IMG/VR virus record: IMGVR_UViG_3300037247_001786
Coordinates: 224,001 to 288,000 of that record
Source: a virus
Taxonomy: Duplodnaviria > Caudoviricetes
Reading direction: 5' to 3' (one strand)
DNA: 64,000 bases
Shown: positions 4,386-19,331 of the stretch, one piece after another
Layout: each line of letters starts with the position of its first letter
How positions within the stretch are numbered: the first letter of the stretch is position 1
Position numbers and translations under genes: made by a program
The notes under the pieces: model-generated
Database searches by the model: none
What the model saw: only the letters and a program-made list of their open reading frames with translations
Told to the model about the DNA's origin: nothing

Positions 4386-4386
4386 T

Positions 4387-5235
4387 ATGGGTAACGTCAT
4401 TGACATATCTAATTATAAATGTTTAACTTGTAAATTGTGTTTAACAAAATGTAGTAAAGATACATTTAAAAGTTGCGACAAGTACGTTGAAAATAGAGAT
4501 AAGATAGATAAGAAAATAACTGTAATTATGAATACTTATAGGCGTTCTGATATCTATCTTTCTGAAGCTATAGAATCATTTCTAAAGCAATCTTATAAAA
4601 ATGCTATTTTGCAGATAACAAATACTCATCCATCACCATTAAAATTAGATAAAGATTATGATAATATTGTTATATATAATTTGAAAGATGTTTTTAAACA
4701 ATATCCAAGACATGCGGTATGGTCAGTGTTTAGAGTGAAGACTCCTTACTGGACAATATTAGATGATGATGATATTATACTTCCTTCATATTTGGAAGAA
4801 TTTAATAAGGTTATAGAAAAGAAGGAGGGGCAATACATCCAGATAATTAGGAGAAAAAGGATGTTAGTAGATAAAAATAAAATTTCAAAATTACCATGCG
4901 GCGGTTGGGGAGGGCGTTTGTTAAGTCGTTTTAAAGTTTCTGATTTAAAAAATATATTGAAGAAAAAACCATTTAACAGTTATCAGGGAATAGATAATTA
5001 TCTTACTTGGCATGCTCATTCTGGTATTGTATCGGAAGTTAAGTTGCCTCATACTTATATAACAAGAAGGCAGAAAGATGTCATTCATATATACAAAAGG
5101 AAAGACAATAATCTTAAAGTCGTAAGAAATAGAATATCTAAATCTAAAAAGAAAGCCTATTCAGAAGTTAGGGGAAGTACTGTCTCCCCTCATTGGGAAA
5201 AGGATTATATAAAGGAATATGGAAAATATGTCTAG
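4387..5235 (+). CDS. Glycosyltransferase family 2-like with N-terminal Cys cluster
   Basis: ITVIMNTYRR..YLSEAIESFLKQSY, ILDDDD; CLTCKLCLTKC at N-terminus. Confidence 0.7.
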   Translation: MGNVIDISNYKCLTCKLCLTKCSKDTFKSCDKYVENRDKIDKKITVIMNTYRRSDIYLSEAIESFLKQSYKNAILQITNTHPSPLKLDKDYDNIVIYNLKDVFKQYPRHAVWSVFRVKTPYWTILDDDDIILPSYLEEFNKVIEKKEGQYIQIIRRKRMLVDKNKISKLPCGGWGGRLLSRFKVSDLKNILKKKPFNSYQGIDNYLTWHAHSGIVSEVKLPHTYITRRQKDVIHIYKRKDNNLKVVRNRISKSKKKAYSEVRGSTVSPHWEKDYIKEYGKYV

Positions 5236-6007
5236 TCAGTGGGTATTGCAACATAATGGCTATGGTTTAGGAAATTTTGTGATGGCTACCCCAGCACTTA
5301 AGTTACTCGCAGATAGAAGAGCCTCAAAAGTAGATGTTTTTTTTCAGACAGCATCTATATCTGAGCTTTATAGAGATTGCCCATTTATAAATGTTTTAAA
5401 TAAAAAGCCTAAAAATAAGCCTTTTTTTACAATTAGAATGGTTAAAAGGAAAAAACATGAAAGCGATTCAGAAGCATTGTGTAGGATATTATTAAAAAAT
5501 AAATTTAAGATGCCTCACACGTATATTGACACTGTATCAGAGTTTTCTTTTGATAAAAAAAACAAAAAATGCGTGTCTATCTTTCATGGTTGTTTGGGAA
5601 AAATTTATAAAGATAAAAAGGATATAGGAGTTGAGGCAAGACAGTATATCATAGATCAATTATCGAAAGAAGATGTGGATATTATTTTGATAGGTACGAA
5701 TCGAGATGGAGATAGATATTGGGGCAAGAATAATTTAAAAAATGTTAAAAATTATTTAGGAAAACACTCTTTAAGAAAAAGTGTAGGAATTTTAAATAGT
5801 TGTGATTGTTTTATATCTAATGATACTGGATTGTATCATGTGGCAGGGGCGTTAAGGAAAAAGGGATTAGTTTGTTGGAAGAAAACTAATCATATTAAAA
5901 ATATGTCTCCTTTTGATGGGATAACTCATTCTCGAAGTTCAAAAGGTTATTTCGACGTATATAAAAAAGATATTGATAACTTTATAAAAAGGATAATAAG
6001 AAAATGA
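5219..6007 (+). CDS. Glycosyltransferase family 9 (heptosyltransferase-like)
   Basis: GLGNFVMATPAL N-terminal motif and CDCFISNDTGLYHVAGAL C-terminal GT9 signature. Confidence 0.75.
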   Translation: MENMSSQWVLQHNGYGLGNFVMATPALKLLADRRASKVDVFFQTASISELYRDCPFINVLNKKPKNKPFFTIRMVKRKKHESDSEALCRILLKNKFKMPHTYIDTVSEFSFDKKNKKCVSIFHGCLGKIYKDKKDIGVEARQYIIDQLSKEDVDIILIGTNRDGDRYWGKNNLKNVKNYLGKHSLRKSVGILNSCDCFISNDTGLYHVAGALRKKGLVCWKKTNHIKNMSPFDGITHSRSSKGYFDVYKKDIDNFIKRIIRK

Positions 6008-6924
6008 GAATAGTTTTTAACTTACATCGAGTTGGATTAGGAAATAATGGAGGCAGTAGAACTATTGTTAAATCTGCTGAAGCCCTTGCCTCTCTAGGTC
6101 AAGAAGTTATTATCGCCAGTAATATTAGAAATAAATATACATGGGAACCTATCAACAAAAAAGTTAATTTTATTTGCAGTAAAAATATCCCCAAAGGGGA
6201 TATCATTATTGCTACAGGTATAGGAAGTGTTGGGAGTACAGTCTCCTCTAATTTCAAAAAGAAATTTTATTTTATAAGGGGCTTCGAAACCTGGGCTGCA
6301 AAAAAATCAGTTCTTTTAAAATCTTATAAATCGTTACAATGCATTGTTAATAGCGGTTGGCTTAAAAAAATGCTAAAGAGTAATGGGATAAAATCTAATT
6401 TAGTTTATAACGGTTTGGATTTTGAAGATTTTTACGATATGGATACTGAAAGACATAGTTCTTTAGGAGGATTATATAGCAAGCGGCACAAGACTAAAAA
6501 TCATGATTTTATTTCTAAATATTCCAATGAAAAAAATATTCCGATAGTGCTTTTAAATAGAGATATAAAGGATTCTAATCCTAAAAATATTAATAAATGG
6601 TATAATACTATTAAGGTCTGGGCTTCTCCGAGCGAGCTAGAGGGGTTACATAATCCTCCTATGGAAGCGTCTTTATCTGGTTGCGGTTTGGTTTCTACTG
6701 ATCATCCTAGATCTGGGACATCCGATTATGCCATTTCTAATGAAACGGCATTAATATATAAACATGGAGATATGCGTAGTTTTGATAACCAAGTTACAAA
6801 ATTATTAGAAGATGAACCTCTTCGACAGAATTTAAATAGGAATATGATAAGGTTATTGAAGGATAAAATAGGAACGAGGCAAAAAAATATGCAAAAATTT
6901 ATAGAGATATTGGATAAAAAGTAA
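6004..6924 (+). CDS. Glycosyltransferase family 4 (GT-B)
   Basis: GGSRTI N-terminal loop, VYNG, EGLHNPPMEASLSG (E-x7-E). Confidence 0.75.
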   Translation: MRIVFNLHRVGLGNNGGSRTIVKSAEALASLGQEVIIASNIRNKYTWEPINKKVNFICSKNIPKGDIIIATGIGSVGSTVSSNFKKKFYFIRGFETWAAKKSVLLKSYKSLQCIVNSGWLKKMLKSNGIKSNLVYNGLDFEDFYDMDTERHSSLGGLYSKRHKTKNHDFISKYSNEKNIPIVLLNRDIKDSNPKNINKWYNTIKVWASPSELEGLHNPPMEASLSGCGLVSTDHPRSGTSDYAISNETALIYKHGDMRSFDNQVTKLLEDEPLRQNLNRNMIRLLKDKIGTRQKNMQKFIEILDKK

Positions 6925-6925
6925 T

Positions 6926-7549
6926 ATGAATAAATGTCATATAAGAAAAATAGAAAGCCAGTTCGGAAAAATTATTAAGAGGGAGAGAGTAAGCAGCTGG
7001 AGACAAGTGTACAAATTGCATTTTAAGAGTTCTGTACTTAGACTTGATATACTTAAAAAAAATGACCCCACTTTGATGTATCATAAAATGTGTTTAGATC
7101 AAGGACTTATCTGTTTTCCAAAGATACAGAAAGTTTTTAAGGAAGGTAATCTATGCTTAAAAATAAGTGAATGGATAGAGGGTAGAACTTATTCTGATAT
7201 TTTTAGATCAGGTTCTTTAGAGAAGAGCATGGTTTTTAAAATGGGAAGTTCAGTTGCTAAAGTAAATATGATATCTCAGAATAGACTTCATTTACATAAT
7301 GATGATATTACCTATCATAATGTTATGCTCGATAGAAACGGCAATTTTATCATGTTTGATTTAGATAGGCTATCTTTTATTAAAGATGTGGATGGGGCAT
7401 TGGTTAAGACTTTACTAAAGAGGATTTCAAATAAAGAAATGATAGATTCTTTTTTAGAAGGATATAAAAAACATAGAGATATAAATAATTTGATTTCTTT
7501 GTGCCAGCAGAGAAATTGGAAATGGAAATGGAAAAAAAAAGGAGTGTAA
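6926..7549 (+). CDS. Kinase-like protein (APH/Kdo-kinase superfamily)
   Basis: ISEWIEG hinge, HNDDITYHNV catalytic loop, FDLD metal-binding motif. Confidence 0.55.
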   Translation: MNKCHIRKIESQFGKIIKRERVSSWRQVYKLHFKSSVLRLDILKKNDPTLMYHKMCLDQGLICFPKIQKVFKEGNLCLKISEWIEGRTYSDIFRSGSLEKSMVFKMGSSVAKVNMISQNRLHLHNDDITYHNVMLDRNGNFIMFDLDRLSFIKDVDGALVKTLLKRISNKEMIDSFLEGYKKHRDINNLISLCQQRNWKWKWKKKGV

Positions 7550-7550
7550 T

Positions 7551-8165
7551 ATGAATAAAATTACTATGAAAACATTTAGATCACAGCTAAGTAGTCTAAA
7601 CAAGAAATGGAGAAAGATTTCACCGAAACAGAAGATATATCAAGCTCCGAATAAGAGACTTGCAAACGCTATGGAGAATTTTGATTTTTTGAAAGGATGT
7701 AACGTCTTGGATATAGGATGTAATCAGGGTTTGCATTCTTTAATGTTGTCCAATATATCTAACAGCGTAATAGGATTAGAGGGGAACGAGAATACTTATA
7801 AAAGAGCGTTATGCACTCAAAAGCATTTCTCTTCATTAGGGTATAATTCCAGTAATGTTACTTTTGTAAATAGTCCTCTTAAAGACTTTAATGACTATGA
7901 AGGGGTTAACGCTATATTGGCTTGTTGCTGCATTTACAATATGAACGATGAGAATATAGATAACTTCATTGCCATCTTAAAGCAATGTCATAAATTAATA
8001 TATCAGACGAGACCAGCAGCGAATTCGAGGATCAAAGATAGAAGCAGACACGACCTTTGTTTAGAAAAGGACGTTATTAAGTTTCTAGAGGCAGAAGATT
8101 TTACTATTGTAGAGCATAAGCATTCTAATTCAAAATGGCCAATTTTTTGTGCAGAGAGGAAATAA
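7551..8165 (+). CDS. Class I SAM-dependent methyltransferase
   Basis: VLDIGCNQG motif I, VIGLE motif II. Confidence 0.8.
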   Translation: MNKITMKTFRSQLSSLNKKWRKISPKQKIYQAPNKRLANAMENFDFLKGCNVLDIGCNQGLHSLMLSNISNSVIGLEGNENTYKRALCTQKHFSSLGYNSSNVTFVNSPLKDFNDYEGVNAILACCCIYNMNDENIDNFIAILKQCHKLIYQTRPAANSRIKDRSRHDLCLEKDVIKFLEAEDFTIVEHKHSNSKWPIFCAERK

Positions 8166-8166
8166 T

Positions 8167-8802
8167 ATGAATATAAGTTTCTCAATAACAGCTATGGTCA
8201 GGCCAGAGATTTTGAAGAGGACATTAAAGTCTTTCTCTGCTAATATAAAAGGATTGGATTTAAAAGAATGCGATGTTTTTATCAATGTAGACCCAATACC
8301 AGGAGACGGGAGCCAAGACTCGGTAGTAGATGTGGCTTCTTCGTTTTTTGGGAATGTTATTGCTAGCTTACCGAAGAAACCCAATTTTACGAAAGCCGTT
8401 AACTGGTGTTTAGCAACGGCAGATTCGGATTACCTTTTTCATCTAGAAGACGATTGGGAATTAGTACAAAAGTTTGACATTATAAACGTAATGAAGAAAA
8501 CATTTGCAGATAAGAGAGTACAACAGTTGGCTCTGCGTGCATATTCGTATCCTTATAATAAGGTTTGCCTAAGTCCTAGTATAATGAAGAAGGAATTGTA
8601 CAAAAGCTTCGTTGATAAGTTCGATTTAAAGATAAACCCAGAGATACAATTGAGACCCAGTTGGGTTAATAAATCTACTATCGTCGCTTATCCCAGTAAA
8701 AGAATTATAGTTAAAGACATCGGTAGGTTATGGATAAAAAAATCAGGATATAAGAAGTCGGGTGATAAGAAATTTCAATTTATTAAATGGGAGGAGAAAT
8801 GA
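8167..8802 (+). CDS. GT2-like glycosyltransferase
   Basis: RPEIL..TLKSF, INVD, FHLEDDW; start at MNISF. Confidence 0.6.
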   Translation: MNISFSITAMVRPEILKRTLKSFSANIKGLDLKECDVFINVDPIPGDGSQDSVVDVASSFFGNVIASLPKKPNFTKAVNWCLATADSDYLFHLEDDWELVQKFDIINVMKKTFADKRVQQLALRAYSYPYNKVCLSPSIMKKELYKSFVDKFDLKINPEIQLRPSWVNKSTIVAYPSKRIIVKDIGRLWIKKSGYKKSGDKKFQFIKWEEK

Positions 8803-9716
8803 GAGTAATAGTTTTATACGGGTATATGTCTGATGGAGGACATAATAAGAAAAATCAGAAAATGATAGATGGTATTTTGACTTGCGGCTATAGAGAGTTT
8901 GCAAAAAATGCCGGTTGTATTATCTACCCTTGCATCCAATATAGGCTTAAAGAGTCTTGGGAGTATTCAATGCCTAATCCAGACGATATAGTCGATTTCT
9001 GTAATGATCATCCAGATGCTATTGTTTGGTCTGTGAAATATTCTCCAGAAAAGAATGAGATTCTGTCTCGAATAAAAAACTTTAAGATTCATTATCCATG
9101 CAATGCCAAAAACTCTATAAATTCATACTGTGATATCAATCTAGTGGATACAGAGCAGAGGATGACAAATGCTTCTTGTCGTCTATACTTAAAAGGGAAA
9201 GACCCTGACTTTTGGAAGCCAATAGAAGAGAAGAAGTTTGATTACCTTTTGATGGGAACAAGAGATGACAAGAACCAGAGCTATTTCATTAGGCAGCTAA
9301 ATTCTATTAAGCAGAAGAGGAAGATATTATGGATTGGAGGTAAAGGAAAGGTTAAAAAAACTATAAGAACTCATCATGAGGTTAGTTACACATCAGTTGG
9401 AGGTCCGGAATTTGTCAGTAAGAAAATAGGATTAGCAAAAATAGGAATATTGTATTCTGAGATTGCTAGTGAAGGCTTTCCTCAGTCATTTTTAGAGATG
9501 ACGATGTCCGGAGTCCCTGTAGTTTATGGAGGACCGTATAATCCTCTATACTTCTTTAAGGAAAACTCTTCCAGACCTAAAAAGAAGCATTTAATAATAG
9601 AAGCCGAAGATAGGTTAAAAAAATACAATGCTGATGTTAGTAAGGCTTGCCGAGCTTGTGCCGTTGATCATTATAGTATTGAAAAATCTATAGAAAGGAT
9701 GTGTTCATTTCGATGA
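8799..9716 (+). CDS. GT-B fold glycosyltransferase-like
   Basis: C-terminal SEGFPQSFLEMTMSGVPVV (E-x7-E); resembles 22341-23309; RBS GGAGGAG. Confidence 0.55.
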   Translation: MRVIVLYGYMSDGGHNKKNQKMIDGILTCGYREFAKNAGCIIYPCIQYRLKESWEYSMPNPDDIVDFCNDHPDAIVWSVKYSPEKNEILSRIKNFKIHYPCNAKNSINSYCDINLVDTEQRMTNASCRLYLKGKDPDFWKPIEEKKFDYLLMGTRDDKNQSYFIRQLNSIKQKRKILWIGGKGKVKKTIRTHHEVSYTSVGGPEFVSKKIGLAKIGILYSEIASEGFPQSFLEMTMSGVPVVYGGPYNPLYFFKENSSRPKKKHLIIEAEDRLKKYNADVSKACRACAVDHYSIEKSIERMCSFR

Positions 9717-10813
9717 AAAAAAGAATATTAATTGTAGCCACAATTTATAGATGTGGTCAAAAAATGTATCCAGTTATCCCTCTTCTTTGTCAGAAGTATG
9801 AGATTGATGTCCTTATGTTCAATCAGATGAGTGAGGATACTCCTTGGCATGGAGATAACGACCCAAGACTATTATTCTATAAGAAATGTGTAGAAGATGG
9901 GGCTACTGTCATGCAAGGTCCAAGTGCGGATTATATATCAAAGCATTATAAGGATTTATCTATTGTCTCAAAGATAGATTATGCGAAGTATAATATGATT
10001 CTATTGGATGATAATTTTGTCAAGGGAGGTTGGGGAACACCTCTTCTATGTAGAGAAGCTAGAAAACGAGGCATCATTGTTGTCGCGACTCCTCATGGCA
10101 ATCATGAGTTTGATAGATATGGCATTAAGGATAAACTAGGCGACATATTTGATTATTCCTTTGTTTTTGGAAAAAGAGAACAGCGAGAATTAATTGGTAA
10201 GCATAGAAGGAAGTTTCTTTTGCCTGGAGGAATCCCAGCTAACGATGTCCTCAAAAATTATAAGCGGACTAATGAGAACATTCTAATAGTTGTTAGCTAT
10301 GTAGACAAATTCAACTCTCGCAAAAAGAATCAAAACGGTTATTTACCTTTTACTGAAAAAACATTTTTAGATTTAGGTATTCCAGCCTTGCAGAAAAAGT
10401 ATGGACTAAATGTAATCATCAAAGAAAAAAGTAGATTCAAAAAGGGTTTAGATTACTCTCTGAAACATATGGAGAAATATGAGGGAGTTAAAGTTATTAT
10501 GGACCATCCAGATAACAATCAATTGATTGCTGAATCGGCTCTTCTTGTTTCGGCTCCATCGACATTATGTTTCAAGGCGATGCAGATAGGAATACCCACT
10601 GTATTGTTGAAACGGTATGGGATGACTGGCAATTTTAAGGGCTACGACGGTCTTATCGATATAGGCAAGGATGACATTAATGAGTCTATAGAGAGAGTCA
10701 TTAATAACGAGTATCCTGGTTTTATAGAAGATGTCCTTGAAGGCGGTAACGATTTTTCATCGACAGAGATATATGTAAAAACAATTAATGATATTTTGGG
10801 AGGAACTATATAA
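9713..10813 (+). CDS. Putative GT-B fold / capsule-biosynthesis-like transferase
   Basis: PHGN, GIPAND, LVSAPSTL..KAM..GIPTV pattern typical of GT-B C-terminal domains; inside the glycan island. Confidence 0.45.
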   Translation: MKKRILIVATIYRCGQKMYPVIPLLCQKYEIDVLMFNQMSEDTPWHGDNDPRLLFYKKCVEDGATVMQGPSADYISKHYKDLSIVSKIDYAKYNMILLDDNFVKGGWGTPLLCREARKRGIIVVATPHGNHEFDRYGIKDKLGDIFDYSFVFGKREQRELIGKHRRKFLLPGGIPANDVLKNYKRTNENILIVVSYVDKFNSRKKNQNGYLPFTEKTFLDLGIPALQKKYGLNVIIKEKSRFKKGLDYSLKHMEKYEGVKVIMDHPDNNQLIAESALLVSAPSTLCFKAMQIGIPTVLLKRYGMTGNFKGYDGLIDIGKDDINESIERVINNEYPGFIEDVLEGGNDFSSTEIYVKTINDILGGTI

Positions 10814-11769
10814 TGTTTGATTTTATAGTTTATGTTTCAAGCCGCAATAATTATGATATGTTAGAAAACGAAGTGATTAGAAATGTATTTTATCCAAATA
10901 TTATTTTTGTCAATGTAGATGATGGTTCCTGTGAAAAAGAGAAGTCAAAAGGCATGAGAATTTGCAAAGAGAACAACATTCCTTTTATAGAAAATGAAAA
11001 ACGAGGGTTACAGTGGGCTACAAAGTCTGTTGTTAATTACGCTAAGAAAAATCATCCGAATGTAAAATTTTTAATACATTTCCAGCATGATAACTATCCT
11101 ATGTTTATAGATTTTTATACAAAATTTCAGCGTTATATAGATAGTGGCTTTTTGGATGAATTTGGAACTATTGGATTTAATATTCTTGATATAGATGGAA
11201 GGAACACCAAAAAGTCTTACAAGTTAAAAAAGGATAAAGGGAAAGATGTCTTAGGCATGTGCGGCGTTGCTAATTTAGAGGAATCTAAAGCCGTATATTA
11301 TTGCAATAATCACATTTCTATGGATTGGAAAATATGGGGAAACCCTTTTGCGGTGGAATCTGTTATGTGGTGTTGTTTAGCAATTAATATAGAACTTTTT
11401 GAGAAATATATAGACGTTACGGACAAATACCATTTGCATTTATGGGGAGCGGATATATGTTATCAATTCTGCAAAAATAATATATATAACGTTGCTCTTC
11501 CTGATCTTTACGTTACGAATCATATGGCGTTGAAATCTAAATACGATATATCATCTAATTCAGCCAAAGGCTCTAAGGGTGGCGATGAATATCATTTTGG
11601 GCATAACAACCATCATAGTATCTTTAGAGAAAGATTTGGTTTTTGTTGGAAAGATTCTAGGAAGACTTTCGCAAAGGTTAAAAACGAGTACAAAGAAACG
11701 CTGTTGTATAAGTTTTTTAACCATAATATAAAAAATGGACCTCTCAAGACATGGGATATGCAGTTATGA
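10813..11769 (+). CDS. GT2-like glycosyltransferase
   Basis: VNVDDGS, FQHDNY, WGADIC. Confidence 0.55.
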   Translation: MFDFIVYVSSRNNYDMLENEVIRNVFYPNIIFVNVDDGSCEKEKSKGMRICKENNIPFIENEKRGLQWATKSVVNYAKKNHPNVKFLIHFQHDNYPMFIDFYTKFQRYIDSGFLDEFGTIGFNILDIDGRNTKKSYKLKKDKGKDVLGMCGVANLEESKAVYYCNNHISMDWKIWGNPFAVESVMWCCLAINIELFEKYIDVTDKYHLHLWGADICYQFCKNNIYNVALPDLYVTNHMALKSKYDISSNSAKGSKGGDEYHFGHNNHHSIFRERFGFCWKDSRKTFAKVKNEYKETLLYKFFNHNIKNGPLKTWDMQL

Positions 11770-12761
11770 AAATTGTAATCATCATTGGGACGAGACCCCA
11801 GTACATAAAGATAAAACCTCTTTATGACTATTTAAAAAATAATAATATTGACAGTTATTTAATTGATACAAACCAGCATTATTCAGACAGTGTCTCAAAG
11901 AACATCATAGAGGGTTTAGATTTAGAGATAGACCAGAATCTTCAAATCAAATCAGGTGACGAGATGTCTTTTTTATCAGATGCCCTCACATCTATTTCTG
12001 AGGCATTGCAATCTGTATGCGATGAAGGAGACGTAGTTGTAGTTATCGGCGATACAAATAGCACTCTCGTCTCTTCTATCGTAGCTAAAAAACTAGGGCT
12101 AAGATTAGCTCATATCGAAGCTGGTATTAGATGTAACGATAGATCTCGCCCAGAAGAACTAAACAGGATAGTTGTCGATAGCTTATCGGATGTCCATTTT
12201 ATTTCTAGAAAAAGAGATTCTTCAAATGTTTCAAATCCTATTTATGTCGGAGATTTAGAGTACAGTTTTTTATACAGTATAGAGCATAAATATAACGACA
12301 TTACATATGATGGAGATATATTACTAACTATCCACAGGCAAGAGAATATGAATGTATCAGTTTTATATAATATTTTCGAATACTGCCATTCATTAGAACA
12401 GCCGATACTCTTTCCAATGCATCATAGATCCAATAATTTTATCAAAGCCAACGGTATTAATATCCCGAATAATATCAAGATTATTGAGCCTTTGGAATAT
12501 TTCGATATGATACAAGTTATGAGAAATTGCAAAGGAATCATCACGGATAGCGGTGGAGTTTCTAAGACTTCTCCTTTTTTTGGAAAGAAATGTATCATAC
12601 CTCTTAAAAAAATAGAATGGTCCGAAATAATTGATGCTGGCTACGCTACAAACGAATTAAAAACAGGCTGGTTTGACGATTGTAAGATAGACAGAGATAT
12701 GAATTTTTATTACGCAGAAGATAGTTGTAAGACTATCTTGAAGGGATTATATGGAAAGTAA
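11766..12761 (+). CDS. Non-hydrolysing UDP-N-acetylhexosamine 2-epimerase (WecB/WbpI-like)
   Basis: IIGTRPQYIK, DTNQHY, GDTNSTL, AHIEAGIR, PEELNR, TDSGG. Confidence 0.85.
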   Translation: MKIVIIIGTRPQYIKIKPLYDYLKNNNIDSYLIDTNQHYSDSVSKNIIEGLDLEIDQNLQIKSGDEMSFLSDALTSISEALQSVCDEGDVVVVIGDTNSTLVSSIVAKKLGLRLAHIEAGIRCNDRSRPEELNRIVVDSLSDVHFISRKRDSSNVSNPIYVGDLEYSFLYSIEHKYNDITYDGDILLTIHRQENMNVSVLYNIFEYCHSLEQPILFPMHHRSNNFIKANGINIPNNIKIIEPLEYFDMIQVMRNCKGIITDSGGVSKTSPFFGKKCIIPLKKIEWSEIIDAGYATNELKTGWFDDCKIDRDMNFYYAEDSCKTILKGLYGK

Positions 12762-13308
12762 GTTTTTCGTACATGAATCATCATATATTGATGGAGAACC
12801 TAATATTGGAAAGGGTACGTTGATATGGCATTTTTCGCATGTACAAGAAGGAGCTATAATAGGAAAGAATTGTACTATCGGTCAAAATGTGAATATCGCT
12901 TCTGGTGCCATCATCGGGGATAACGTAAAGATACAGAACAACGTTAGCGTTTATGACGGAGTTATTATTGAGGATGATGTATTTATCGGACCTTCAGTTG
13001 TCTTTACTAATGTTATTAATCCTAGAGCTTTTGTTCAGAGGAAAGACGAGTTTAAGAAAACGATTGTTAGAAAAGGGTCTTCGATAGGAGCTAATGCTAC
13101 GATTGTATGCGGTTTAAATATTGGGGAATATGCCCTAGTGGGGGCCGGTTCGGTAGTAACTAAAAACGTCATGAGTAATGAGGTTGTTGTAGGGGTTCCC
13201 GCCTTAGTTATAGGTAGGATATGTGCTTGTGGTAATCTTATTAAGAAGAATAGAGAGAATACTATGGTGGTATTTGAATGTAGTCGCTGTAATGAAAAGA
13301 TTCATTAA
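12751..13308 (+). CDS. wbpD: UDP-2-acetamido-3-amino-2,3-dideoxyglucuronate N-acetyltransferase-like (hexapeptide repeat)
   Basis: HESSYID..IG.GT.IWHFSHV, KIQNNVSVYDGV, GPSVVFTNVINPRAF, GANATIVCG. Confidence 0.85.
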   Translation: MESKFFVHESSYIDGEPNIGKGTLIWHFSHVQEGAIIGKNCTIGQNVNIASGAIIGDNVKIQNNVSVYDGVIIEDDVFIGPSVVFTNVINPRAFVQRKDEFKKTIVRKGSSIGANATIVCGLNIGEYALVGAGSVVTKNVMSNEVVVGVPALVIGRICACGNLIKKNRENTMVVFECSRCNEKIH

Positions 13309-13328
13309 GATGTTCATAAGGAGAATTA

Positions 13329-14264
13329 ATGAAGAAGTTTGCTTTGATAGGAGCTGCTGGATATATAGCTCCGAGGCATATGGATGCCATAAAAAAGACT
13401 GATAATATATTAGTCGCTGCTATAGATAAGAACGATTCCGTTGGAATCATAGACTCTTATTTTCCAACCTCAAGTTTTTTTACCGAGTTCGAGAGATTCG
13501 ATAGGTATATCGAGAAGATGAATCTTACAGACCCCGTGGATTACGTTTCTATCTGTTCTCCTAACTATCTACATGACGCACATGTCAGATTTGGTTTGAG
13601 GGTAGGAGCGAATGTTATTTGTGAGAAGCCTTTAGTTATTAATCCTCGCAATTTAGATTCTTTGGAAAAGATAGAGGAGATGTCTGATGGTAACGTTAAT
13701 TGTATATTGCAACTAAGGCTAAGCGAGGCATTTAAACAGATAAAAGAAAAAGTAGATAATGCTGATGATATTCTAGATATTGATGTTACTTATATTACTT
13801 CAAGAGGACAATGGTACACTTATTCTTGGAAGGGGGATGACCAGAAGTCAGGTGGAGTCATTTACAATATTGGGATACATCTCATTGATATGCTATGTTA
13901 CGCATTAGGGGAACCAATCCAAAATATCGTTCATCTTAACGAGAGTCGTAAGTCTGCTGGGTATATGGAATTTAAAAAAGCTAGAGTTAGATGGTTTTTA
14001 TCAATTCAAAATAGCGATATTCCAGAAGATATTAAAGACAGTACTACATATCGTTCGATTACTATAAATGGAGAAGCTATAGATATGTCTTTCGGTTTCC
14101 AGGATTTGCATGTCAAGGCTTATAAAAAGATATTGGATGGAGAAGGATTTAGTATGTCAGATGCTAGAACGGCTTTACAAGTTGCTTATGATATTAAAAA
14201 TTCAACTCAAGTTGGAATTAAGGGCGATTATCATCCATTACTATTAGACTTAAAATTTAGATAA
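13329..14264 (+). CDS. wbpB: UDP-GlcNAcA 3-dehydrogenase, Gfo/Idh/MocA family
   Basis: FALIGAAGYIAPRHM.AIK, SICSPNYLHDAH, ICEKP, YITSRG.WY..SWKGD..KSGG...NIGIH, RARVRWFLSI. Confidence 0.9.
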   Translation: MKKFALIGAAGYIAPRHMDAIKKTDNILVAAIDKNDSVGIIDSYFPTSSFFTEFERFDRYIEKMNLTDPVDYVSICSPNYLHDAHVRFGLRVGANVICEKPLVINPRNLDSLEKIEEMSDGNVNCILQLRLSEAFKQIKEKVDNADDILDIDVTYITSRGQWYTYSWKGDDQKSGGVIYNIGIHLIDMLCYALGEPIQNIVHLNESRKSAGYMEFKKARVRWFLSIQNSDIPEDIKDSTTYRSITINGEAIDMSFGFQDLHVKAYKKILDGEGFSMSDARTALQVAYDIKNSTQVGIKGDYHPLLLDLKFR

Positions 14265-14274
14265 GGGACATTTT

Positions 14275-15243
14275 ATGAATATTCTACTCACAGGCGTCGC
14301 AGGCTCGATAGGTTCATTTCTTTTGGATTCTCTTTTAGAGAGAGGGCATACCGTAGTTGGCATTGATAATTTAATATATGGGCGTATGGATAATATCAGC
14401 CACAATCTATCCAATGATAATTTTACCTTTATAGACGGAGATATAACAGAATATGATTTTTTTTCAATGGAACAAAAGTTTGATTGCATTTGCCATCTAG
14501 CGGCTTTAAAGAAAATAGGCAATATGTCAAATTGGAAGAGAACAGATTTAATCAGAAACAATTTTGCTATTCAGCGGTTGTTAAGATTAGCTGTAGAACA
14601 AGATTGTAAGTTTGTCTTCTCATCTACTTCTGATGTCTATGGAACATCAGAAGATTTACCTTTTAGAGAAGATGGAGATTTGAAAATTGGACCGTCTGAT
14701 GTAGAGAGGTGGGATTACGCCGCTTCAAAACTTTTCGATGAACACGTATGTTTTTCTTATGCCGATGATTACGATATCGATTTAGTTGTCATTCGATATT
14801 TTGGTGCTTATAGCGATAGATCTAAATGGCAGTACGGAGAGCATATACCGTTGTTTATCAAGAGGGCAATGGAAGGAGAAGAGATAACTGTTCATGGAGA
14901 TGGATTACATACCAGGAGCATGTGCCATATAGATGATGCGATAATAGGGACGATACAGTCTATTGAATTAGAATCCGCTAATGGACATATTATTAATATC
15001 GGTTCAAATGAAGAAATGACCATATTAGAACATGCTAAAACTATATGGAGAATTGTTAACGGAAATGAAGAGCCTAATATAAAATTTATTCCAATGAAAG
15101 AAGTTTTTGGTAAATATAGAGAGATACAAAGAAGAGTTCCTGACTTAACAAAAGCTAAAAAACTTTTGGATTATGAACCTAAAATTTTATTTGAAGATGG
15201 CATAGCAGATGTCGTTGCAAAGATTAGGAGAAAAAATGATTAA
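14275..15243 (+). CDS. NAD-dependent epimerase/dehydratase (extended SDR; UDP-glucuronate decarboxylase/ArnA-like)
   Basis: TGVAGSIG, HLAA, SSTSDVYG, YAASK (YxxxK), GDGLHTRS. Confidence 0.85.
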   Translation: MNILLTGVAGSIGSFLLDSLLERGHTVVGIDNLIYGRMDNISHNLSNDNFTFIDGDITEYDFFSMEQKFDCICHLAALKKIGNMSNWKRTDLIRNNFAIQRLLRLAVEQDCKFVFSSTSDVYGTSEDLPFREDGDLKIGPSDVERWDYAASKLFDEHVCFSYADDYDIDLVVIRYFGAYSDRSKWQYGEHIPLFIKRAMEGEEITVHGDGLHTRSMCHIDDAIIGTIQSIELESANGHIINIGSNEEMTILEHAKTIWRIVNGNEEPNIKFIPMKEVFGKYREIQRRVPDLTKAKKLLDYEPKILFEDGIADVVAKIRRKND

Positions 15244-16882
15244 CGGTAAAAAAGTTTTAGCCATTACTTTAGCCAGAGGCGGCTCTACGAAAATAAAAAA
15301 GAAAAATATCGTAGACATTAATGGAAAACCGTTGTTGCAATACACAACTGATGAGGTTAAGAAAAGCAAGTATATAGACAATTATGCTGTTTCGACTGAT
15401 GATAAAGAAATAGCTCATGTCTGTACGGAAATGGACGTTCCTTATTATTGGCGTAATAATGAAAATGCAACAGACATAGCTAAGTCTTCCGATGCGTTGA
15501 TTGAGGTAGTAAATTATTTCGGCGGCAAGTATGATTATATCGTAGAAGTTATGTGTACTAACCCTTTAAAAACCGTTGAAGACATAGACGGATGTATAGA
15601 GAGAATAGAAGAGGCAGGAGGAGATTCAGTAGTTTCTGTTGTTAGAATATACGACCATCATCCAGCAAGATTAAAATATCTTGATGAACATAATGTCATG
15701 CAGGACTTTGTACCTGAAATTTTAGAGAGCAGAAGGCAAGACTTAACGCCTCCAGCGTATATCAGAAATGGCTCTATCTATGTAATGACTAAAAATTTTC
15801 TACTGACAGAAAAAAGTAGATACAATAAATCAAGTCAGGCTTACATAATGTCAGAGGATAACACTATTAATATTGACGAGAAGAGAGACTTGCTAATTGC
15901 CAAGTATATACTTCAAGAGAGGAACGGATTGAAAGTTCTATGCATTACACCTGTGTCCCACATCGAGGGACTAGTAGACATGCTTGAGCAATGCGGAGAT
16001 GTGACCTATAAGGTTGATATCGACAGGCAGGGGGCAAGAGATAGCCTATTAAGGGACAAGTATAATGTTATCTATACGAATCCTAACAAGATGACGTTTA
16101 GGATAGATGAAGAGTTATTAAAAGGGACTTCTGTAGAAATAGTTTGCACGGCATCTACTGGGACTAATCATATAGATATGAATTATTGTGAGAAAAATAA
16201 TATTGAAGTTATTTCACTTACAGTCGATTATGAAATAATCGAAAAAATAACGTCTACCGCTGAGATGGCTTTTACACTAATGTTATCTCTTATCAGGAAC
16301 CTTCCAAAAGCGGTGGATGGAGTTAAGAAATATGATTGGAATTATGAGAACTATATAGGGCGACAGCTAAATTGTTTAGATGTAGGAATTATTGGATACG
16401 GAAGGCTCGGCAAACATTATGCTAGATTCTGTGAGCCATTTTTTAGAAATATATTTATCACTGACCCTTATAAAAAAGTAGACGATAAGTATTATCAGAC
16501 TGATTTCGACCATTTACTAAAAGAATCAGATGTGGTTGTCTTGCATGTTCATTTGAATGATGATACTTATCATATGATTAACGAAACGACTATAAGTAAA
16601 ATGAAAAATGGTGCTTATTTGGTTAATACGTCAAGAGGAGACATTGTTGATGAAGAGGCTGTTATTGATGCTATTAAATCTGGCAAGCTAAAAGGGTACG
16701 CAACCGATGTAATTTCCGATGAACTATGTGAAGGCTTGGAAAACAGTAGTTTAATAAAGGCTATGAAAGAAGGGCATAATATTATAATTAGCCCTCATAT
16801 TGCTGGCATGACGAAAGAAGCACAAGAATTAGCTTATCGTAGGGTTGCCACAAGGTTATTGGAGAAAATAAATGAAAAATAA
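15236..16882 (+). CDS. neuA: CMP-nonulosonate synthetase (NeuA-like) fused to a D-2-hydroxyacid dehydrogenase
   Basis: N-terminal LARGGSTKIKKKN, RNGSIY, NIDEKRD; C-terminal TASTGTNHID, GIIGYGRLG, LVNTSRG, ISPHIAG. Confidence 0.85.
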   Translation: MINGKKVLAITLARGGSTKIKKKNIVDINGKPLLQYTTDEVKKSKYIDNYAVSTDDKEIAHVCTEMDVPYYWRNNENATDIAKSSDALIEVVNYFGGKYDYIVEVMCTNPLKTVEDIDGCIERIEEAGGDSVVSVVRIYDHHPARLKYLDEHNVMQDFVPEILESRRQDLTPPAYIRNGSIYVMTKNFLLTEKSRYNKSSQAYIMSEDNTINIDEKRDLLIAKYILQERNGLKVLCITPVSHIEGLVDMLEQCGDVTYKVDIDRQGARDSLLRDKYNVIYTNPNKMTFRIDEELLKGTSVEIVCTASTGTNHIDMNYCEKNNIEVISLTVDYEIIEKITSTAEMAFTLMLSLIRNLPKAVDGVKKYDWNYENYIGRQLNCLDVGIIGYGRLGKHYARFCEPFFRNIFITDPYKKVDDKYYQTDFDHLLKESDVVVLHVHLNDDTYHMINETTISKMKNGAYLVNTSRGDIVDEEAVIDAIKSGKLKGYATDVISDELCEGLENSSLIKAMKEGHNIIISPHIAGMTKEAQELAYRRVATRLLEKINEK

Positions 16883-17636
16883 TATTTTATTTTGTTCGGC
16901 GACTGCCAATGACAGATTTGAAGAAGCTTTATGCATGTTTACTACGATAAAAGATATTTATCCTGAAGCGAAGTGTCATTTTGATGCCATCTTTTTTACA
17001 GACGAACAGGTTAAATACTTTGAAGATTTAGGGGTTATCGTTAAAAGGTTTGATACTAAAGAAGATTTGCCTCTGTTATTCAGTGGAACTAAGGATGCTC
17101 GAAGGTCCATAAGTCAGAAAGAAATGGAGACTATAGGTTATAGGGCTAATACGGAATGGAATTTGATGTATGCCTCTTGGAGGTTATATATGTTGCCTAG
17201 AATTATGAAGGAATATGACGCTCCAATTATGTGGTTAGATACAGACTGTATGGTCAGAAAAAATATAGATGAATTTTTAAATAAATCTTTGAATTATGAT
17301 TTTTCTGTCAATTTAAGAAATAAATTAGAAGAGAGAAGGCAATTATTGTCAGCAGTCTTTGTCGTGAATAATACCCCTAAAGGGAAAAAATGTCTTGAGT
17401 TAATGCCTCAAATATATCTAGAGCTTTTTGAAAAAGCTATATGGTGGGCCGACCCCTGGAGTATTAATGCATCAAGAATAAGAAGCAAATGTGAAACTTG
17501 GAATTTTAGTTATGGAAAATATGCTGATAATTTTCTTAGGGGGAAATCCTCTATTTGGCACGCGAAGGCGGCGGGAGTGACAAAAAAAGTTTGGATTAAT
17601 GAAACAAAAAGATTTTTAAAAAGATATAAATTATAG
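16872..17636 (+). CDS. GT-A fold transferase-like protein
   Basis: IMWLDTD DxD motif, SAVFVV, WADP, IWHAK; similar layout to the 2455/3065 pair. Confidence 0.5.
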   Translation: MKNNILFCSATANDRFEEALCMFTTIKDIYPEAKCHFDAIFFTDEQVKYFEDLGVIVKRFDTKEDLPLLFSGTKDARRSISQKEMETIGYRANTEWNLMYASWRLYMLPRIMKEYDAPIMWLDTDCMVRKNIDEFLNKSLNYDFSVNLRNKLEERRQLLSAVFVVNNTPKGKKCLELMPQIYLELFEKAIWWADPWSINASRIRSKCETWNFSYGKYADNFLRGKSSIWHAKAAGVTKKVWINETKRFLKRYKL

Positions 17637-17647
17637 GAGATTATAGT

Positions 17648-18436
17648 ATGGCAAAATTAATTGCAGAATTAGGATGGAATCACATGGGCGATATTTCAAT
17701 TGGTAAAGAAATGATATCCGCTGCTAAAGAGGCTGGAGCAGATTATGCAAAGTTTCAAACTTGGAAAGTCGAAAGGCTTATTGATGGTCCTTGGGATCAT
17801 GATGGTCGCCGACAAATTTACGAAAAAGCTGAATTAACAAGAGAGAAGCATCAAATTTTTAAAGACTATTGCGATTCAATTGGGATTAAGTTTTTAACTT
17901 CATGTTTTTGTATTAAAGATTTAGATATGGTTAGAGAGTTCTGCGACGAGGTTAAGATACCTAGTCCGGAAGGGTATAGCACAGATCTAATTAGTCAAGC
18001 TATTAAAAAGTTTGACCATGTTTATCTGTCAACAGGAGCTTCTTATGTAGATGAGTATATCCATCGATGGACATATGAGAATCTAACTTTATTGCATTGC
18101 GTTTCTTCTTATCCTTGTAGTATAGAAAATATAAATCTACCTAAATTAAAATTTTTACAAAGCGTCAGCCCTAGAGTGGGATATAGCGGTCATTATCAAG
18201 GGACATATGATGCCATAGCCGCTATTAGTTTAGGAGCTACTGTTATCGAGAAACATTTTACTATTGACCACGATTTGCCAGGTAGGGATAACAAATTCGC
18301 GTTATTGCCTGATCAATTTAAAGAAATTAGCGATTTTAATAAAGTTTTTTCTAGCATGGATATGAATAGGGGTTTGGGTATTCAAGATTGCGAAAATGAT
18401 TATAGAACTTATCAAAAAGGAAGATGGGGGGTATAG
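17648..18436 (+). CDS. neuB: N-acetylneuraminate (nonulosonate) synthase, short form without C-terminal SAF domain
   Basis: IAELGWNHMG, AGADYAKFQT, LSTG, LLHCVSSYP, GYSGH, IEKHFT. Confidence 0.9.
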   Translation: MAKLIAELGWNHMGDISIGKEMISAAKEAGADYAKFQTWKVERLIDGPWDHDGRRQIYEKAELTREKHQIFKDYCDSIGIKFLTSCFCIKDLDMVREFCDEVKIPSPEGYSTDLISQAIKKFDHVYLSTGASYVDEYIHRWTYENLTLLHCVSSYPCSIENINLPKLKFLQSVSPRVGYSGHYQGTYDAIAAISLGATVIEKHFTIDHDLPGRDNKFALLPDQFKEISDFNKVFSSMDMNRGLGIQDCENDYRTYQKGRWGV

Positions 18437-19323
18437 TGAATAAGATTTATATATCAGCTTTGTCTCGCGGAGGCTCTAATGTTATTGCGGCATTACTTCA
18501 TAACCATGAAGAGTTATATACTGTTGCTAGAAGAGATTGGAGTCAATTCAGGAATAAGGGTTCGATTAATATTCCTAAACTTTCGGAGCATTTGTCTAAA
18601 ACTAAGAAGTCTATATATTATCGAGGAGGCTTTCAGAAAGACTTATCTAAAGTAAAATATTTTGTTTTTGACAAGTACCTTGAAAAGGATTTTGATTTTA
18701 AATGCCCAGAAAAAGACTTAGTTTTGACTGTCGTCAGAAATCCTTTTGCTATCGTAAATTCGATGGATAATTTCGGAAAGAAATATGATTTTAAGGCTTG
18801 GAGACAGAATAAGAAGACCATAAATAAGATTATAGGATTTCGTTTTGTAGAGATGATTAAGAATTGCAGGGGGAGGAATAAAATAACTATACAATTTGAA
18901 GATTTGATTAAGGACTACAATAAGGTTCTTGCTGATGTTCATACTGGTATAGGGGTTCCTTATATCCCCCACACATCGTTCGAAGAAGTCTTTGCGAACA
19001 ATGGTTGTATATATTGCGGTGGGAAGTTTAAAGTAGAGGAGACGGATTGCTCAGATGCTTCAACCGTTCTTGTGGAAAGGAATCTAAAATTTGCACCGAG
19101 ACTTCATTTTTGTTGTGAAAATGATAATGCTTTTACTTTAGGGTATGGAGGGTTTAATCCCTGTCAAGAGATATCTGAGCCTAAAGGTTGGAGAGATAGC
19201 ATGACTGAGAGTAATTACGAATGCGTCTATTCTCATATTTCCGACAAACTAGGAGAGGATATCGCTAAGAAATTTTCGGATAATAATGTTACACTGAATG
19301 ATATATTAAACATAGAGGTCTAA
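18424..19323 (+). CDS. Sulfotransferase-family protein
   Basis: SRGGSN PAPS-binding-like loop followed by LLHNH, VRNPFAIVNS, IQFEDL. Confidence 0.55.
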   Translation: MGGIVNKIYISALSRGGSNVIAALLHNHEELYTVARRDWSQFRNKGSINIPKLSEHLSKTKKSIYYRGGFQKDLSKVKYFVFDKYLEKDFDFKCPEKDLVLTVVRNPFAIVNSMDNFGKKYDFKAWRQNKKTINKIIGFRFVEMIKNCRGRNKITIQFEDLIKDYNKVLADVHTGIGVPYIPHTSFEEVFANNGCIYCGGKFKVEETDCSDASTVLVERNLKFAPRLHFCCENDNAFTLGYGGFNPCQEISEPKGWRDSMTESNYECVYSHISDKLGEDIAKKFSDNNVTLNDILNIEV

Positions 19324-19331
19324 GAACTTTA

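What the first reader, a model, noticed from the sequence alone, without database searches (positions are those of the whole stretch)
15236..19323. Unusual nonulosonic-acid module: NeuA fused to a 2-hydroxyacid dehydrogenase, SAF-less NeuB, sulfotransferase
The cytidylyltransferase is fused in one ORF to a full SerA/LdhA-type dehydrogenase. NeuB stops before the usual antifreeze-like (SAF) domain, no hydrolysing NeuC (the epimerase present has IEAG, the non-hydrolysing type) is seen, and a sulfotransferase follows. The product may be a non-canonical 9-carbon sugar (reduced or epimerised, acyl-substituted or sulfated) rather than Neu5Ac, possibly a sialic-acid mimic on the virion.
Basis: partly seen in the sequence, partly recalled or inferred. 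Interest (0 to 1): 0.6.

Follow-up and report, generated by a model that had tools for sequence, protein, structure and literature searches.

The report
Phage cassette for unknown acidic sugar
A 461-kb phage carries an intact copy of a widespread but unstudied gene set (sugar-acid synthase, CMP-activating enzyme joined to a dehydrogenase, small glycosyltransferase) that most likely makes and attaches a sialic-acid-like sugar nobody has identified, and which also occurs in the ocean's most abundant bacteria.

Summary
ORF 15236-16882 is one open frame joining a CMP-sialic/Kdo-type cytidylyltransferase (CT) to a complete D-2-hydroxyacid dehydrogenase (DH). The NeuB homologue (17648-18436, 262 aa) has no SAF domain but keeps all catalytic residues. 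The nearby epimerase is non-hydrolysing. ORF 18424-19323 is a divergent sulfotransferase-fold protein.

None of this is unique to the window. CT and DH are fused or adjacent in 82 of 102 related loci (SAR11, SAR86, Prochlorococcus, Magnetococcales, Elusimicrobia, many phages). They usually sit with a NeuB-like synthase and a small GT2, forming a four-gene cassette. The window's fusion is a recent stop-loss between two translationally coupled genes. About 30% of known NeuB-family proteins lack SAF.

The enzymes fail every curated cut-off for Neu5Ac, Pse and SerA equivalogs, so the product is probably a CMP-activated ulosonic acid of unknown structure. In two Anaerolineae loci a LarA-type 2-hydroxyacid racemase replaces DH. 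This suggests the accessory enzyme works on an alpha-hydroxy-acid centre, for example a second carboxyl end. That step is inferred, not shown.

The epimerase belongs to a separate WbpB/WbpD/WbpI module. This scan has already noted the same cassette on other DNA several times. I found no paper describing it.

The parts
15236..15928 (+). Cytidylyltransferase half of the fusion (CMP-ulosonate synthetase type, CTP_transf_3).
   Evidence: Pfam PF02348 gives 79.8 bits. The motifs LARGGS..K.KKN, SRRQDL, YIRNGSIY and NIDxxxD are invariant across 20 fused homologues. The best NCBIfam match is PseF at 107 bits, below its cut-off of 205.7.
15929..16882 (+). D-2-hydroxyacid dehydrogenase half of the fusion. 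It begins at a TTG where split relatives have the ATG of a separate gene.
   Evidence: Pfam PF02826 gives 161 bits and PF00389 36.9 bits. GxGxxG (G396/G398/G401), D419, R476, E505 and H530 are invariant. The junction was compared with split relatives. The best NCBIfam match is PGDH at 168.8 bits, below its cut-off of 454.
16872..17636 (+). GT-A, GT8-like glycosyltransferase (P0123) with a DTD motif. It is a lineage-specific insertion between CT-DH and NeuB.
   Evidence: Only 3 homologues were found. The nearest ESM Atlas clusters carry Nucleotid_trans or Glyco_transf_8. The AlphaFold2 model has pLDDT 75. Foldseek top hits are glycogenin, UGGT, LARGE1 and LgtC, E about 1e-7.
17648..18436 (+). 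SAF-less NeuB-like PEP-dependent ulosonate synthase (P0124, 262 aa).
   Evidence: Pfam NeuB gives 178.7 bits. The TIGR03569 and TIGR03586 cut-offs are not met. Catalytic residues were mapped onto N. meningitidis NeuB and are conserved in its clade. It lies in a 24-member SAF-less clade with 99% support.
18424..19323 (+). Divergent PAPS-sulfotransferase-fold protein (P0122). It is a lineage-specific insertion between NeuB and GT2.
   Evidence: 34 homologues were found. 16 of 23 match Sulfotransfer_3. R15/G17/N19 and R105/S113 are conserved. The AlphaFold2 model has pLDDT 91.5. Foldseek top hits are SULT7A1, TPST1/2 and retinol dehydratase.
19332..19973 (+). Small GT2 glycosyltransferase, the fourth member of the conserved cassette. 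It is the candidate transferase for the CMP-sugar.
   Evidence: Pfam Glycos_transf_2 gives 62.2 bits. A homologue directly follows NeuB in 35 loci. In other cassettes it is fused to a degenerate CTP_transf_3 domain.
14275..15243 (+). SDR of the UDP-glucuronate decarboxylase / UDP-GlcA 4-epimerase group. Its stop overlaps the start of the fusion gene.
   Evidence: The best PDB sequence matches are UXS1 (137 bits, E = 5.5e-39) and 6zl6, deposited as 'Epimerase domain-containing protein' and which I recall to be B. cereus UDP-GlcA 4-epimerase.
11751..14264 (+). Separate WbpI-, WbpD/WlbB- and WbpB-like module for the UDP-2,3-diacetamido-uronic acid route. This is context and not part of the ulosonate cassette.
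   Evidence: WbpB 3OA2 matches at E = 2.8e-96. WlbB 3MQG matches at E = 6.6e-52. UDP-2,3-diacetamido-2,3-dideoxy-glucuronic acid 2-epimerase 8SXV matches at E = 2e-38.

Best explanation
Window 15236-19973 holds a phage copy of a conserved, uncharacterised four-gene cassette.

Proposed pathway:
1. A SAF-less NeuB-like enzyme condenses phosphoenolpyruvate with an aldose or aldehyde-acid supplied by the host. This gives a 3-deoxy-2-ulosonic acid.
2. The D-2-hydroxyacid dehydrogenase changes an alpha-hydroxy-acid centre of that sugar or its precursor.
3. The cytidylyltransferase makes the CMP-sugar.
4. The small GT2 and/or the GT29- and Maf-like genes 15 kb upstream transfer it to a glycan.

In this phage lineage the translationally coupled CT and DH genes recently merged through loss of the stop codon. 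A GT8-like transferase gene and a sulfotransferase-fold gene were inserted into the cassette.

Shown: the domain identities, intact catalytic residues, gene linkage, the independent origin of the fusion, and failure of every curated Neu/Pse/SerA membership test.

Inferred: the reaction order, the substrate of the dehydrogenase, the GT2 as transferase, and the identity and target of the sugar.
For: - Domains and motifs.
- Fused homologues at 33-75% identity, plus many stand-alone DH at 45-68%.
- 64 bacterial and 38 viral loci were recovered. CT and DH are fused in 27 and fused or adjacent in 82 of 102. NeuB is present in 84. NeuB is followed by the GT2 in 35.
- The NeuB tree places the window in a SAF-less clade of 24 rows (99*), next to huge-phage contigs.
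- NeuB residues E7, K35, Q37, K103, S106, E108, Y155, S180, H182, E201, H203 and D214 are conserved. They correspond to NmNeuB E25, K53, Q55, K129, S132, E134, Y186, S213, H215, E234, H236 and D247.
- The CT tree needs 4-7 fused/split changes. The window and P0003 form a fused pair (99*) among split relatives.
- At the junction, TTG replaces the ATG of the downstream gene.
- CT is fused to LarA (Lar_N) instead of DH in L057 and L063. L057 also carries a NeuB and both carry a GT2-CT' gene.
- The GT2 is fused to a degenerate CT-like domain in other cassettes.
- GT29-like and MptE/Maf-like genes lie just upstream of the window.
Against: - No enzyme of the cassette has been assayed, and I found no paper on it.
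- No gene in the phage releases a free aldose, whether a hydrolysing epimerase or a phosphatase, so the synthase substrate is unknown.
- GT2 enzymes normally use NDP-sugars or polyprenyl phosphates rather than CMP-sugars.
- A lone D-specific dehydrogenase does not obviously give the same result as a LarA-type racemase.
- The LarA fusions occur in only two loci, and the NeuB of L057 lies outside the three cassette clades.
- UDP-sugar 6-dehydrogenase, which a uronic-acid route would need, is absent from this phage.
Confidence: 0.65

Rival explanations
1. The accessory enzyme (DH here, LarA elsewhere) does not act on the ulosonic acid. Instead it supplies a small D-2-hydroxy acid. This could be D-lactate from pyruvate or from L-lactate, or D-glycerate from hydroxypyruvate. 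That acid becomes an acyl or ether substituent of the sugar.
For: Both a D-2-hydroxyacid dehydrogenase and a LarA-type racemase can yield a D-2-hydroxy acid from a common metabolite (enzyme-family knowledge). N-glyceroyl and N-lactoyl nonulosonic acids are known from my own knowledge and were not checked here.
Against: The conserved core has no acyl-activating ligase or acyltransferase. Fusion to the CT argues for consecutive steps on the same sugar.
Confidence: 0.15
2. The module makes an ordinary known sugar (CMP-Neu5Ac, CMP-Kdn or CMP-Kdo) from host ManNAc, mannose or arabinose-5-P. The dehydrogenase is an unrelated SerA/LdhA-like metabolic gene that merely happens to be fused.
For: The NeuB catalytic residues are canonical. 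The best NCBIfam names are NeuB and PseF for the ulosonate enzymes and PGDH for the dehydrogenase.
Against: CT-DH linkage is kept in 82 of 102 loci across many phyla and phages and has been fused several times independently. All equivalog cut-offs are missed by a factor of about two or more. The R314 and F288 contacts of the SAF domain for the N-acetyl group are absent.
Confidence: 0.1
3. The conserved small GT2 is not the transferase. It is a nucleotide-sugar hydrolase that frees the aldose for NeuB, by analogy with PseG and NeuC. Transfer is then done by the GT29- and Maf-like genes.
For: The GT2 directly follows NeuB in 35 loci. No other aldose-releasing enzyme is in the core. CMP-sugar-type transferase genes lie upstream in this phage.
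Against: In many cassettes the GT2 is fused to a degenerate CMP-sugar-synthetase-like domain. That fits binding of the CMP-sugar better than hydrolysis of a UDP-sugar. No GT2-fold hydrolase of this kind is known to me.
Confidence: 0.15
4. The single ORF is an assembly or sequencing artefact: a lost stop between two separate genes.
For: The closest large-phage relatives (L066, L067, L068) have separate genes.
Against: A 75%-identical orthologue on an independent contig is also fused (555 aa). A 100%-identical 548-aa call is recorded as two member sequences. Fused forms exist in at least 27 other loci.
Confidence: 0.03

Closest known systems
Bacterial CMP-Neu5Ac pathway: NeuC, NeuB (N. meningitidis SiaC, PDB 1XUU/1XUZ) and NeuA
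   Same: Both have a TIM-barrel PEP-dependent synthase with the same metal-binding and catalytic residues, a CTP_transf_3 cytidylyltransferase with the same P-loop and RRQDL motifs, and sialyltransferase-type genes nearby.
   Different: The window has no SAF domain, so the R314 and F288 contacts to the N-acetyl group are missing. It has no hydrolysing epimerase. It has an obligatory D-2-hydroxyacid dehydrogenase partner and a GT2 partner. Scores are far below the TIGR03569 cut-off (167 against 399.65).
Pseudaminic acid enzymes PseI (PDB 8H2C) and PseF
   Same: PseI is the best solved-structure match of the synthase (E = 7.6e-26). PseF is the best NCBIfam match of the CT half (107 bits).
   Different: Both matches fall below their cut-offs (139.6 against 340.25; 107 against 205.7). 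No PseB, PseC, PseH or PseG genes are present, and the genome has no aminotransferase.
SAF-less NeuB homologues of environmental bacteria (PMC8208679; PDB 6NCS, 290 aa)
   Same: These are also short NeuB-family proteins without the antifreeze-like domain. About 30% of UniProt NulO synthases are of this kind, mostly from environmental organisms.
   Different: None has an assigned product. The window's clade has its own conserved C-terminal tail (C-E...GRW) and a KFQTW motif.
Bifunctional NeuA of E. coli K1 (CT plus O-acetyl esterase) and bifunctional CDP-ribitol synthase Bcs1 (CT plus reductase). Both are cited from my own knowledge.
   Same: In each, a nucleotide-activating enzyme is fused to an enzyme that modifies the same sugar.
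   Different: The partner domain and the chemistry differ. Here it is a 2-hydroxyacid dehydrogenase, or a LarA racemase in two loci.
WbpB/WbpD/WbpI pathway to UDP-ManNAc3NAcA (P. aeruginosa, Bordetella)
   Same: Window 11751-14264 matches WbpI-type 2-epimerase, WlbB/WbpD and WbpB strongly.
   Different: This is a separate module. WbpA and WbpE homologues are absent from the phage genome.

Membership tests
N-acetylneuraminate synthase NeuB (TIGR03569 equivalog) | Whole-protein score above the curated cut-off (399.65 bits). | tested here: not met
   The score is 167.1 bits, covering model positions 3-248 of 329.
N-acetylneuraminate synthase NeuB | A C-terminal SAF (antifreeze-like) domain supplying R314 and F288 to the partner's active site. 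| tested here: not met
   The protein ends at residue 262, and there is no PF08666 hit in it or in the next ORF.
NeuB superfamily (PF03102) PEP-aldol synthases | Metal ligands H215 and H236, plus E25, K53, Q55, K129, S132, E134, Y186, E234 and D247 (NmNeuB numbering). | tested here: met
   All are present in the window protein and conserved in 20-24 of 24 clade members. Pfam gives 178.7 bits.
Pseudaminic acid synthase PseI (TIGR03586) | Score above the 340.25-bit cut-off. | tested here: not met
   The score is 139.6 bits.
CMP-ulosonate synthetases (CTP_transf_3, PF02348) | Family score above the cut-off, a P-loop R..GS..K.KN, an RRQDL motif and an acidic NIDxxxD metal motif. | tested here: met
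   The score is 79.8 bits against a cut-off of 22.6. The motifs are invariant in 20 homologues.
Pseudaminic acid cytidylyltransferase PseF (TIGR03584) | Score above the 205.7-bit cut-off. | tested here: not met
   The score is 107.3 bits.
D-isomer-specific 2-hydroxyacid dehydrogenases | A GxGxxG NAD site, an Asp after strand beta-B, and the catalytic Arg-Glu-His triad. | tested here: met
   PF02826 gives 161 bits. G396/G398/G401, D419, R476, E505 and H530 are invariant.
D-3-phosphoglycerate dehydrogenase SerA (TIGR01327) | Score above the 454-bit cut-off. | tested here: not met
   The score is 168.8 bits. VanH, formate dehydrogenase and glyoxylate reductase models score nearly as well.
PAPS-dependent sulfotransferases | The sulfotransferase fold with a 5'-PSB loop and a 3'-PB motif (Arg...Ser). 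| tested here: met
   Foldseek top hits are sulfotransferases. 16 of 23 homologues match PF13469. R15/G17/N19 and R105/S113 are conserved. The protein's own Pfam score is sub-threshold (E = 0.14).
PAPS-dependent sulfotransferases | Sulfotransfer activity and an identified acceptor. | not testable with these tools
   This needs an enzyme assay with PAPS.
Hydrolysing UDP-GlcNAc 2-epimerase NeuC (TIGR03568) | Score above the 235.9-bit cut-off. | tested here: not met
   ORF 11751-12761 scores 47 bits for NeuC and 173.5 bits for wecB. Its best PDB relatives include UDP-2,3-diacetamido-2,3-dideoxy-glucuronic acid 2-epimerases.

The most novel reading that the evidence does not exclude
The cassette makes a CMP-activated ulosonic acid that carries a second alpha-hydroxy-acid centre, for example a 3-deoxy-ulosaric (two-carboxyl) sugar built from a uronic or other aldehyde-acid. 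The DH, or LarA in some lineages, sets or oxidises the carbon next to the distal carboxyl. This sugar class has not been described in bacteria or phages. It would be present on the surfaces of SAR11, SAR86 and Prochlorococcus and would be remodelled by their phages.
Probability: 0.3. Interest if true: 0.75.

Novelty: new variant of a known kind. Interest (0 to 1): 0.5.

Why it matters
Sialic-acid-like sugars shape recognition between cells, phages and grazers. This cassette is present in the numerically dominant marine bacteria and in many of their viruses, yet its product is unknown.

Identifying the sugar would add a member to the small set of CMP-activated sugars. It would also explain what a SAF-less NeuB does. 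And it would give a handle on how large phages rewrite the host surface or decorate their own particles.

The natural fusions give direct, testable clues to the order of steps. These are CT-DH, CT-LarA, and GT2 with a degenerate CT-like domain.

Tried and rejected
- A search for longer, multi-domain relatives of the fusion found none.
- Six literature searches for the cassette, for phage or SAR11 NeuB, and for heptulosaric-acid biosynthesis gave nothing relevant. The 2HADH knowledgebase paper does not mention cytidylyltransferase fusions.
- PHROGs gave no family for NeuB, P0122, P0123 or the neighbouring ORFs.
- I tested whether ORF 19981-20694 is a degenerate second CT like the one after the GT2 in L069. 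It shows no similarity, and the genome has only one CTP_transf_3 gene.
- I considered the WecB-like epimerase as a source of ManNAc for NeuB and rejected it. It groups with WbpI-type enzymes and sits in a WbpB/WbpD/WbpI block.
- I considered 2,3-diacetamido-mannuronic acid as the NeuB substrate and rejected it on chemical grounds. The resulting C6 would carry nitrogen, so no pyranose ring could form.
- I could not place the NeuB on a tree with characterised NeuB, LegI, PseI or Kdn synthases, because no reference sequences could be fetched. NCBIfam equivalog scores were used instead.
The NeuB dimer and the fusion protein were therefore not modelled.

Full report
**Setting.** The window is bases 224001-288000 of a 460,978-bp IMG/VR virus record with direct terminal repeats. 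GC content is about 33%. Bacterial-type replication and RNA-repair genes mark it as a huge phage: a clamp-loader subunit, topoisomerase IA, a CCA-adding enzyme and an RNA ligase. Bases 3705-23309 form a + strand glycan island of tightly packed, often overlapping genes.

**Observation.**
- The ORF at 15209/15236-16882 is open throughout. Pfam places a CTP_transf_3 cytidylyltransferase at residues 18-193. A complete D-2-hydroxyacid dehydrogenase follows, with the NAD domain at 355-532 and the catalytic domain spanning 257-552.
- The NeuB homologue at 17648-18436 has 262 residues. It covers only the TIM-barrel part of the NeuB and PseI models, and no SAF domain follows.
- The Epimerase_2 gene at 11751-12761 has 'AHIEAGIR'. 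It scores 173.5 bits for WecB against 47 bits for NeuC.
- The ORF at 18424-19323 has no significant Pfam hit of its own. A full HMMER scan found 34 relatives. Of 23 aligned, 16 match Sulfotransfer_3 and 4 match Sulfotransfer_1.
- Its model (pLDDT 91.5) retrieves PAPS sulfotransferases first. The PSB-loop residues (R15, G17, N19) and 3'-PB residues (R105, S113) are conserved.
It is a GT8-like GT-A glycosyltransferase.

**The fusion is one state of a conserved gene pair.**
- The protein database holds fused homologues at 33-75% identity from Elusimicrobia, Flavobacteriaceae and others. It also holds many stand-alone dehydrogenases at 45-68% identity to the C-terminal half.
- Scans returned 64 bacterial loci and 38 viral loci. 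The bacterial ones include Pelagibacteraceae, SAR86, Prochlorococcus, Magnetococcales, Elusimicrobia and Planctomycetes.
- In 27 of the 102 loci CT and DH are fused. In 82 they are fused or within 300 bp. Split pairs typically have overlapping stop and start codons, such as TAAATG or ATGA.
- On a tree of the CT domain the fused/split state changes at least 4-7 times. The window plus the 75%-identical P0003 form a fused pair (99% support) nested among split phage relatives.
- At the junction the window reads ...ERN-G-L(TTG)-KVLCITP, where relatives have a stop followed by M(ATG)-K-I-L-C-I-T-P.
- The fusion is thus a recent loss of the stop codon between coupled genes. It is real and conserved in a sister phage, but unremarkable as an event.

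**The cassette.**
- Labelling the neighbours by homology shows a recurrent core of CT, DH, NeuB-like and a small GT2. The order is either CT-DH-NeuB-GT2 or NeuB-GT2-CT-DH.
- NeuB is present in 84 of 102 loci. A homologue of the window's GT2 (19332-19973) directly follows it in 35.
- The window has the same core, interrupted by the GT8-like gene and the sulfotransferase-fold gene.
- The NeuB tree resolves three cassette-linked clades:
  - a SAF-less clade of about 270 aa (24 rows, 99% support), which holds the window protein beside huge-phage contigs L066-L068, SAR86, SAR11, Scalindua and Prochlorococcus;
  - a still shorter clade of about 232 aa (30 rows);
  - a SAF-bearing clade (19 rows).
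- Mapping onto N. meningitidis NeuB shows that every catalytic and metal-binding residue is kept in the window protein and its clade. A conserved C-terminal C-E...GRW tail stands where SAF would be.
- A published survey found that about 30% of 13,941 UniProt NulO synthases lack SAF, mostly from environmental organisms (PMC8208679). One such protein is in the PDB (6NCS). SAF loss is therefore not new in itself.

**What the product is not.** The synthase scores 167 bits against a cut-off of 400 for NeuB, and 140 against 340 for PseI. The CT scores 107 against 206 for PseF. The DH scores 169 against 454 for SerA, with VanH, formate dehydrogenase and glyoxylate reductase models close behind. The phage genome has one NeuB and one CT. 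It has no DegT-type aminotransferase and no UDP-sugar 6-dehydrogenase. The Neu5Ac, Leg and Pse routes are therefore not encoded.

**The epimerase belongs elsewhere.** The epimerase and its two neighbours match other enzymes. These are WbpI-type UDP-2,3-diacetamido-2,3-dideoxy-glucuronic acid 2-epimerases (E = 2e-38), WlbB/WbpD (E = 6.6e-52) and WbpB (E = 2.8e-96). They form a separate module. The SDR just upstream of the fusion is nearest to UDP-glucuronate decarboxylase (UXS1). Next comes 6zl6, deposited as 'Epimerase domain-containing protein', which I recall to be a UDP-GlcA 4-epimerase.

**Clues to the mechanism.**
- In two Anaerolineae loci the CT is fused to a LarA (Lar_N) domain instead of a 2-hydroxyacid dehydrogenase. 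Each locus also has a GT2-CT' fusion gene, and one (L057) has a NeuB downstream.
- From established knowledge of the family, LarA enzymes racemise or epimerise the alpha-carbon of 2-hydroxy acids. The anomeric C2 of a ulosonic acid has no alpha-hydrogen. The shared target is therefore most simply another alpha-hydroxy-acid centre. It could be a distal carboxyl end (a ulosaric acid made from a uronic or aldehyde-acid) or a small D-hydroxy acid that becomes a substituent.
- UDP-sugar 6-dehydrogenase and UXS/UGA-epimerase-like SDR genes lie in 36 of the 102 loci, often beside the cassette. This fits the first option. They are common in glycan loci, however, and the dehydrogenase is absent from this phage.
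- In the SAF-bearing cassettes the GT2 is fused to a CTP_transf_3-like domain that has lost the P-loop, RRQDL and metal motifs. In phage loci L069 and L072 a truncated second CT follows the GT2. A GT2 tied to a dead CMP-sugar synthetase domain is best read as the transferase that takes the CMP-sugar. A hydrolase role is not excluded.
- Just upstream of the window lie two MptE/Maf-like ORFs (33 and 25 bits, below the 34.6 cut-off) and a GT29-like ORF (34.4 bits, above the 23 cut-off). These are further candidate CMP-sugar transferases.

**Verdict.**
- The finding is real, and its general reading is supported: this is a non-canonical sialic-acid-like sugar.
- The features called unusual are the hallmarks of a widespread, uncharacterised cassette rather than peculiarities of this phage.
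- Earlier notes of this scan describe the same cassette on several other genomes. I treated them as leads. I re-derived the linkage, the degenerate GT2-CT domain and the Wbp module independently.
- New here:
  - the dating of this particular fusion;
  - the CT-LarA alternative;
  - the confirmation of the sulfotransferase fold and the GT8-like insert;
  - the conserved tail of the SAF-less clade.
- The carbon number of the sugar, whether it is the sulfated residue, and whether it ends up on the virion or on the host surface all remain open.

Noticed in passing
L057:9989-12013 and L063:2651-4663: In two Anaerolineae genomes the cassette's cytidylyltransferase is fused to a LarA (Lar_N) nickel-pincer 2-hydroxyacid racemase domain instead of the dehydrogenase. 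A GT2 gene fused to a degenerate CT-like domain also lies in each locus, directly downstream in L057.
   Followed up: partly
L029:8188-9546, L064:10343-11725, L003:12621-14039, L069:11885-12490: The cassette's GT2 is fused to, or followed by, a second CTP_transf_3-like domain. In the fused (453-473 aa) forms this domain has lost the P-loop, RRQDL and metal-binding motifs, so it is a likely pseudo-enzyme or CMP-sugar-binding module. The separate L069 copy keeps its P-loop but is truncated at the C-terminus.
   Followed up: partly
window 11751-14264: Strong WbpI-, WbpD/WlbB- and WbpB-like genes lie in tandem. The phage genome has no WbpA-type 6-dehydrogenase and no WbpE-type aminotransferase, so the pathway must lean on the host.
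   Followed up: partly
L104:9707-11955 (genome 221707-223955, just before the window): Two MptE/Maf-like (DUF115) ORFs sit just under the Pfam cut-off, and one GT29 sialyltransferase-like ORF sits above it. They are candidate CMP-sugar transferases about 15 kb from the cassette.
   Followed up: partly
L104:6554-7357: A metallo-beta-lactamase-fold protein matches the anti-Pycsar Apyc1 family (64 bits, cut-off 50). This is a likely counter-defence gene.
   Followed up: no
L104:2140-3012 and L104:8254-8919: A CYTH domain is fused to a DUF488-N3a domain. Nearby is a cREC_REC 'cyclic-phosphate processing receiver' protein. Both look like nucleotide-signalling or RNA-end genes.
   Followed up: no
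window 17648-18436 and its clade (for example L066:14716-15516): The SAF-less ~270-aa NeuB clade shares a conserved C-terminal tail (C-E...GRW). This tail may replace the arginine that the SAF domain normally lends to the partner subunit. The clade also has KFQTW where N. meningitidis NeuB has KHQTH.
   Followed up: partly
L067:11632-13254: A related 298-kb phage contig carries two tandem SAF-less NeuB paralogues.
   Followed up: no
window 9701-11769: Two ORFs have no Pfam or PHROG family. Homologues of the second lie directly upstream of the CT gene in several phage loci and one Pelagibacter contig, and homologues of the first lie nearby in the same loci. The ESM Atlas places the second among phage-specific GT2-like proteins.
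   Followed up: partly
window 51169-52335: A complete histidine kinase (HisKA plus HATPase_c) is encoded by the phage.
   Followed up: no
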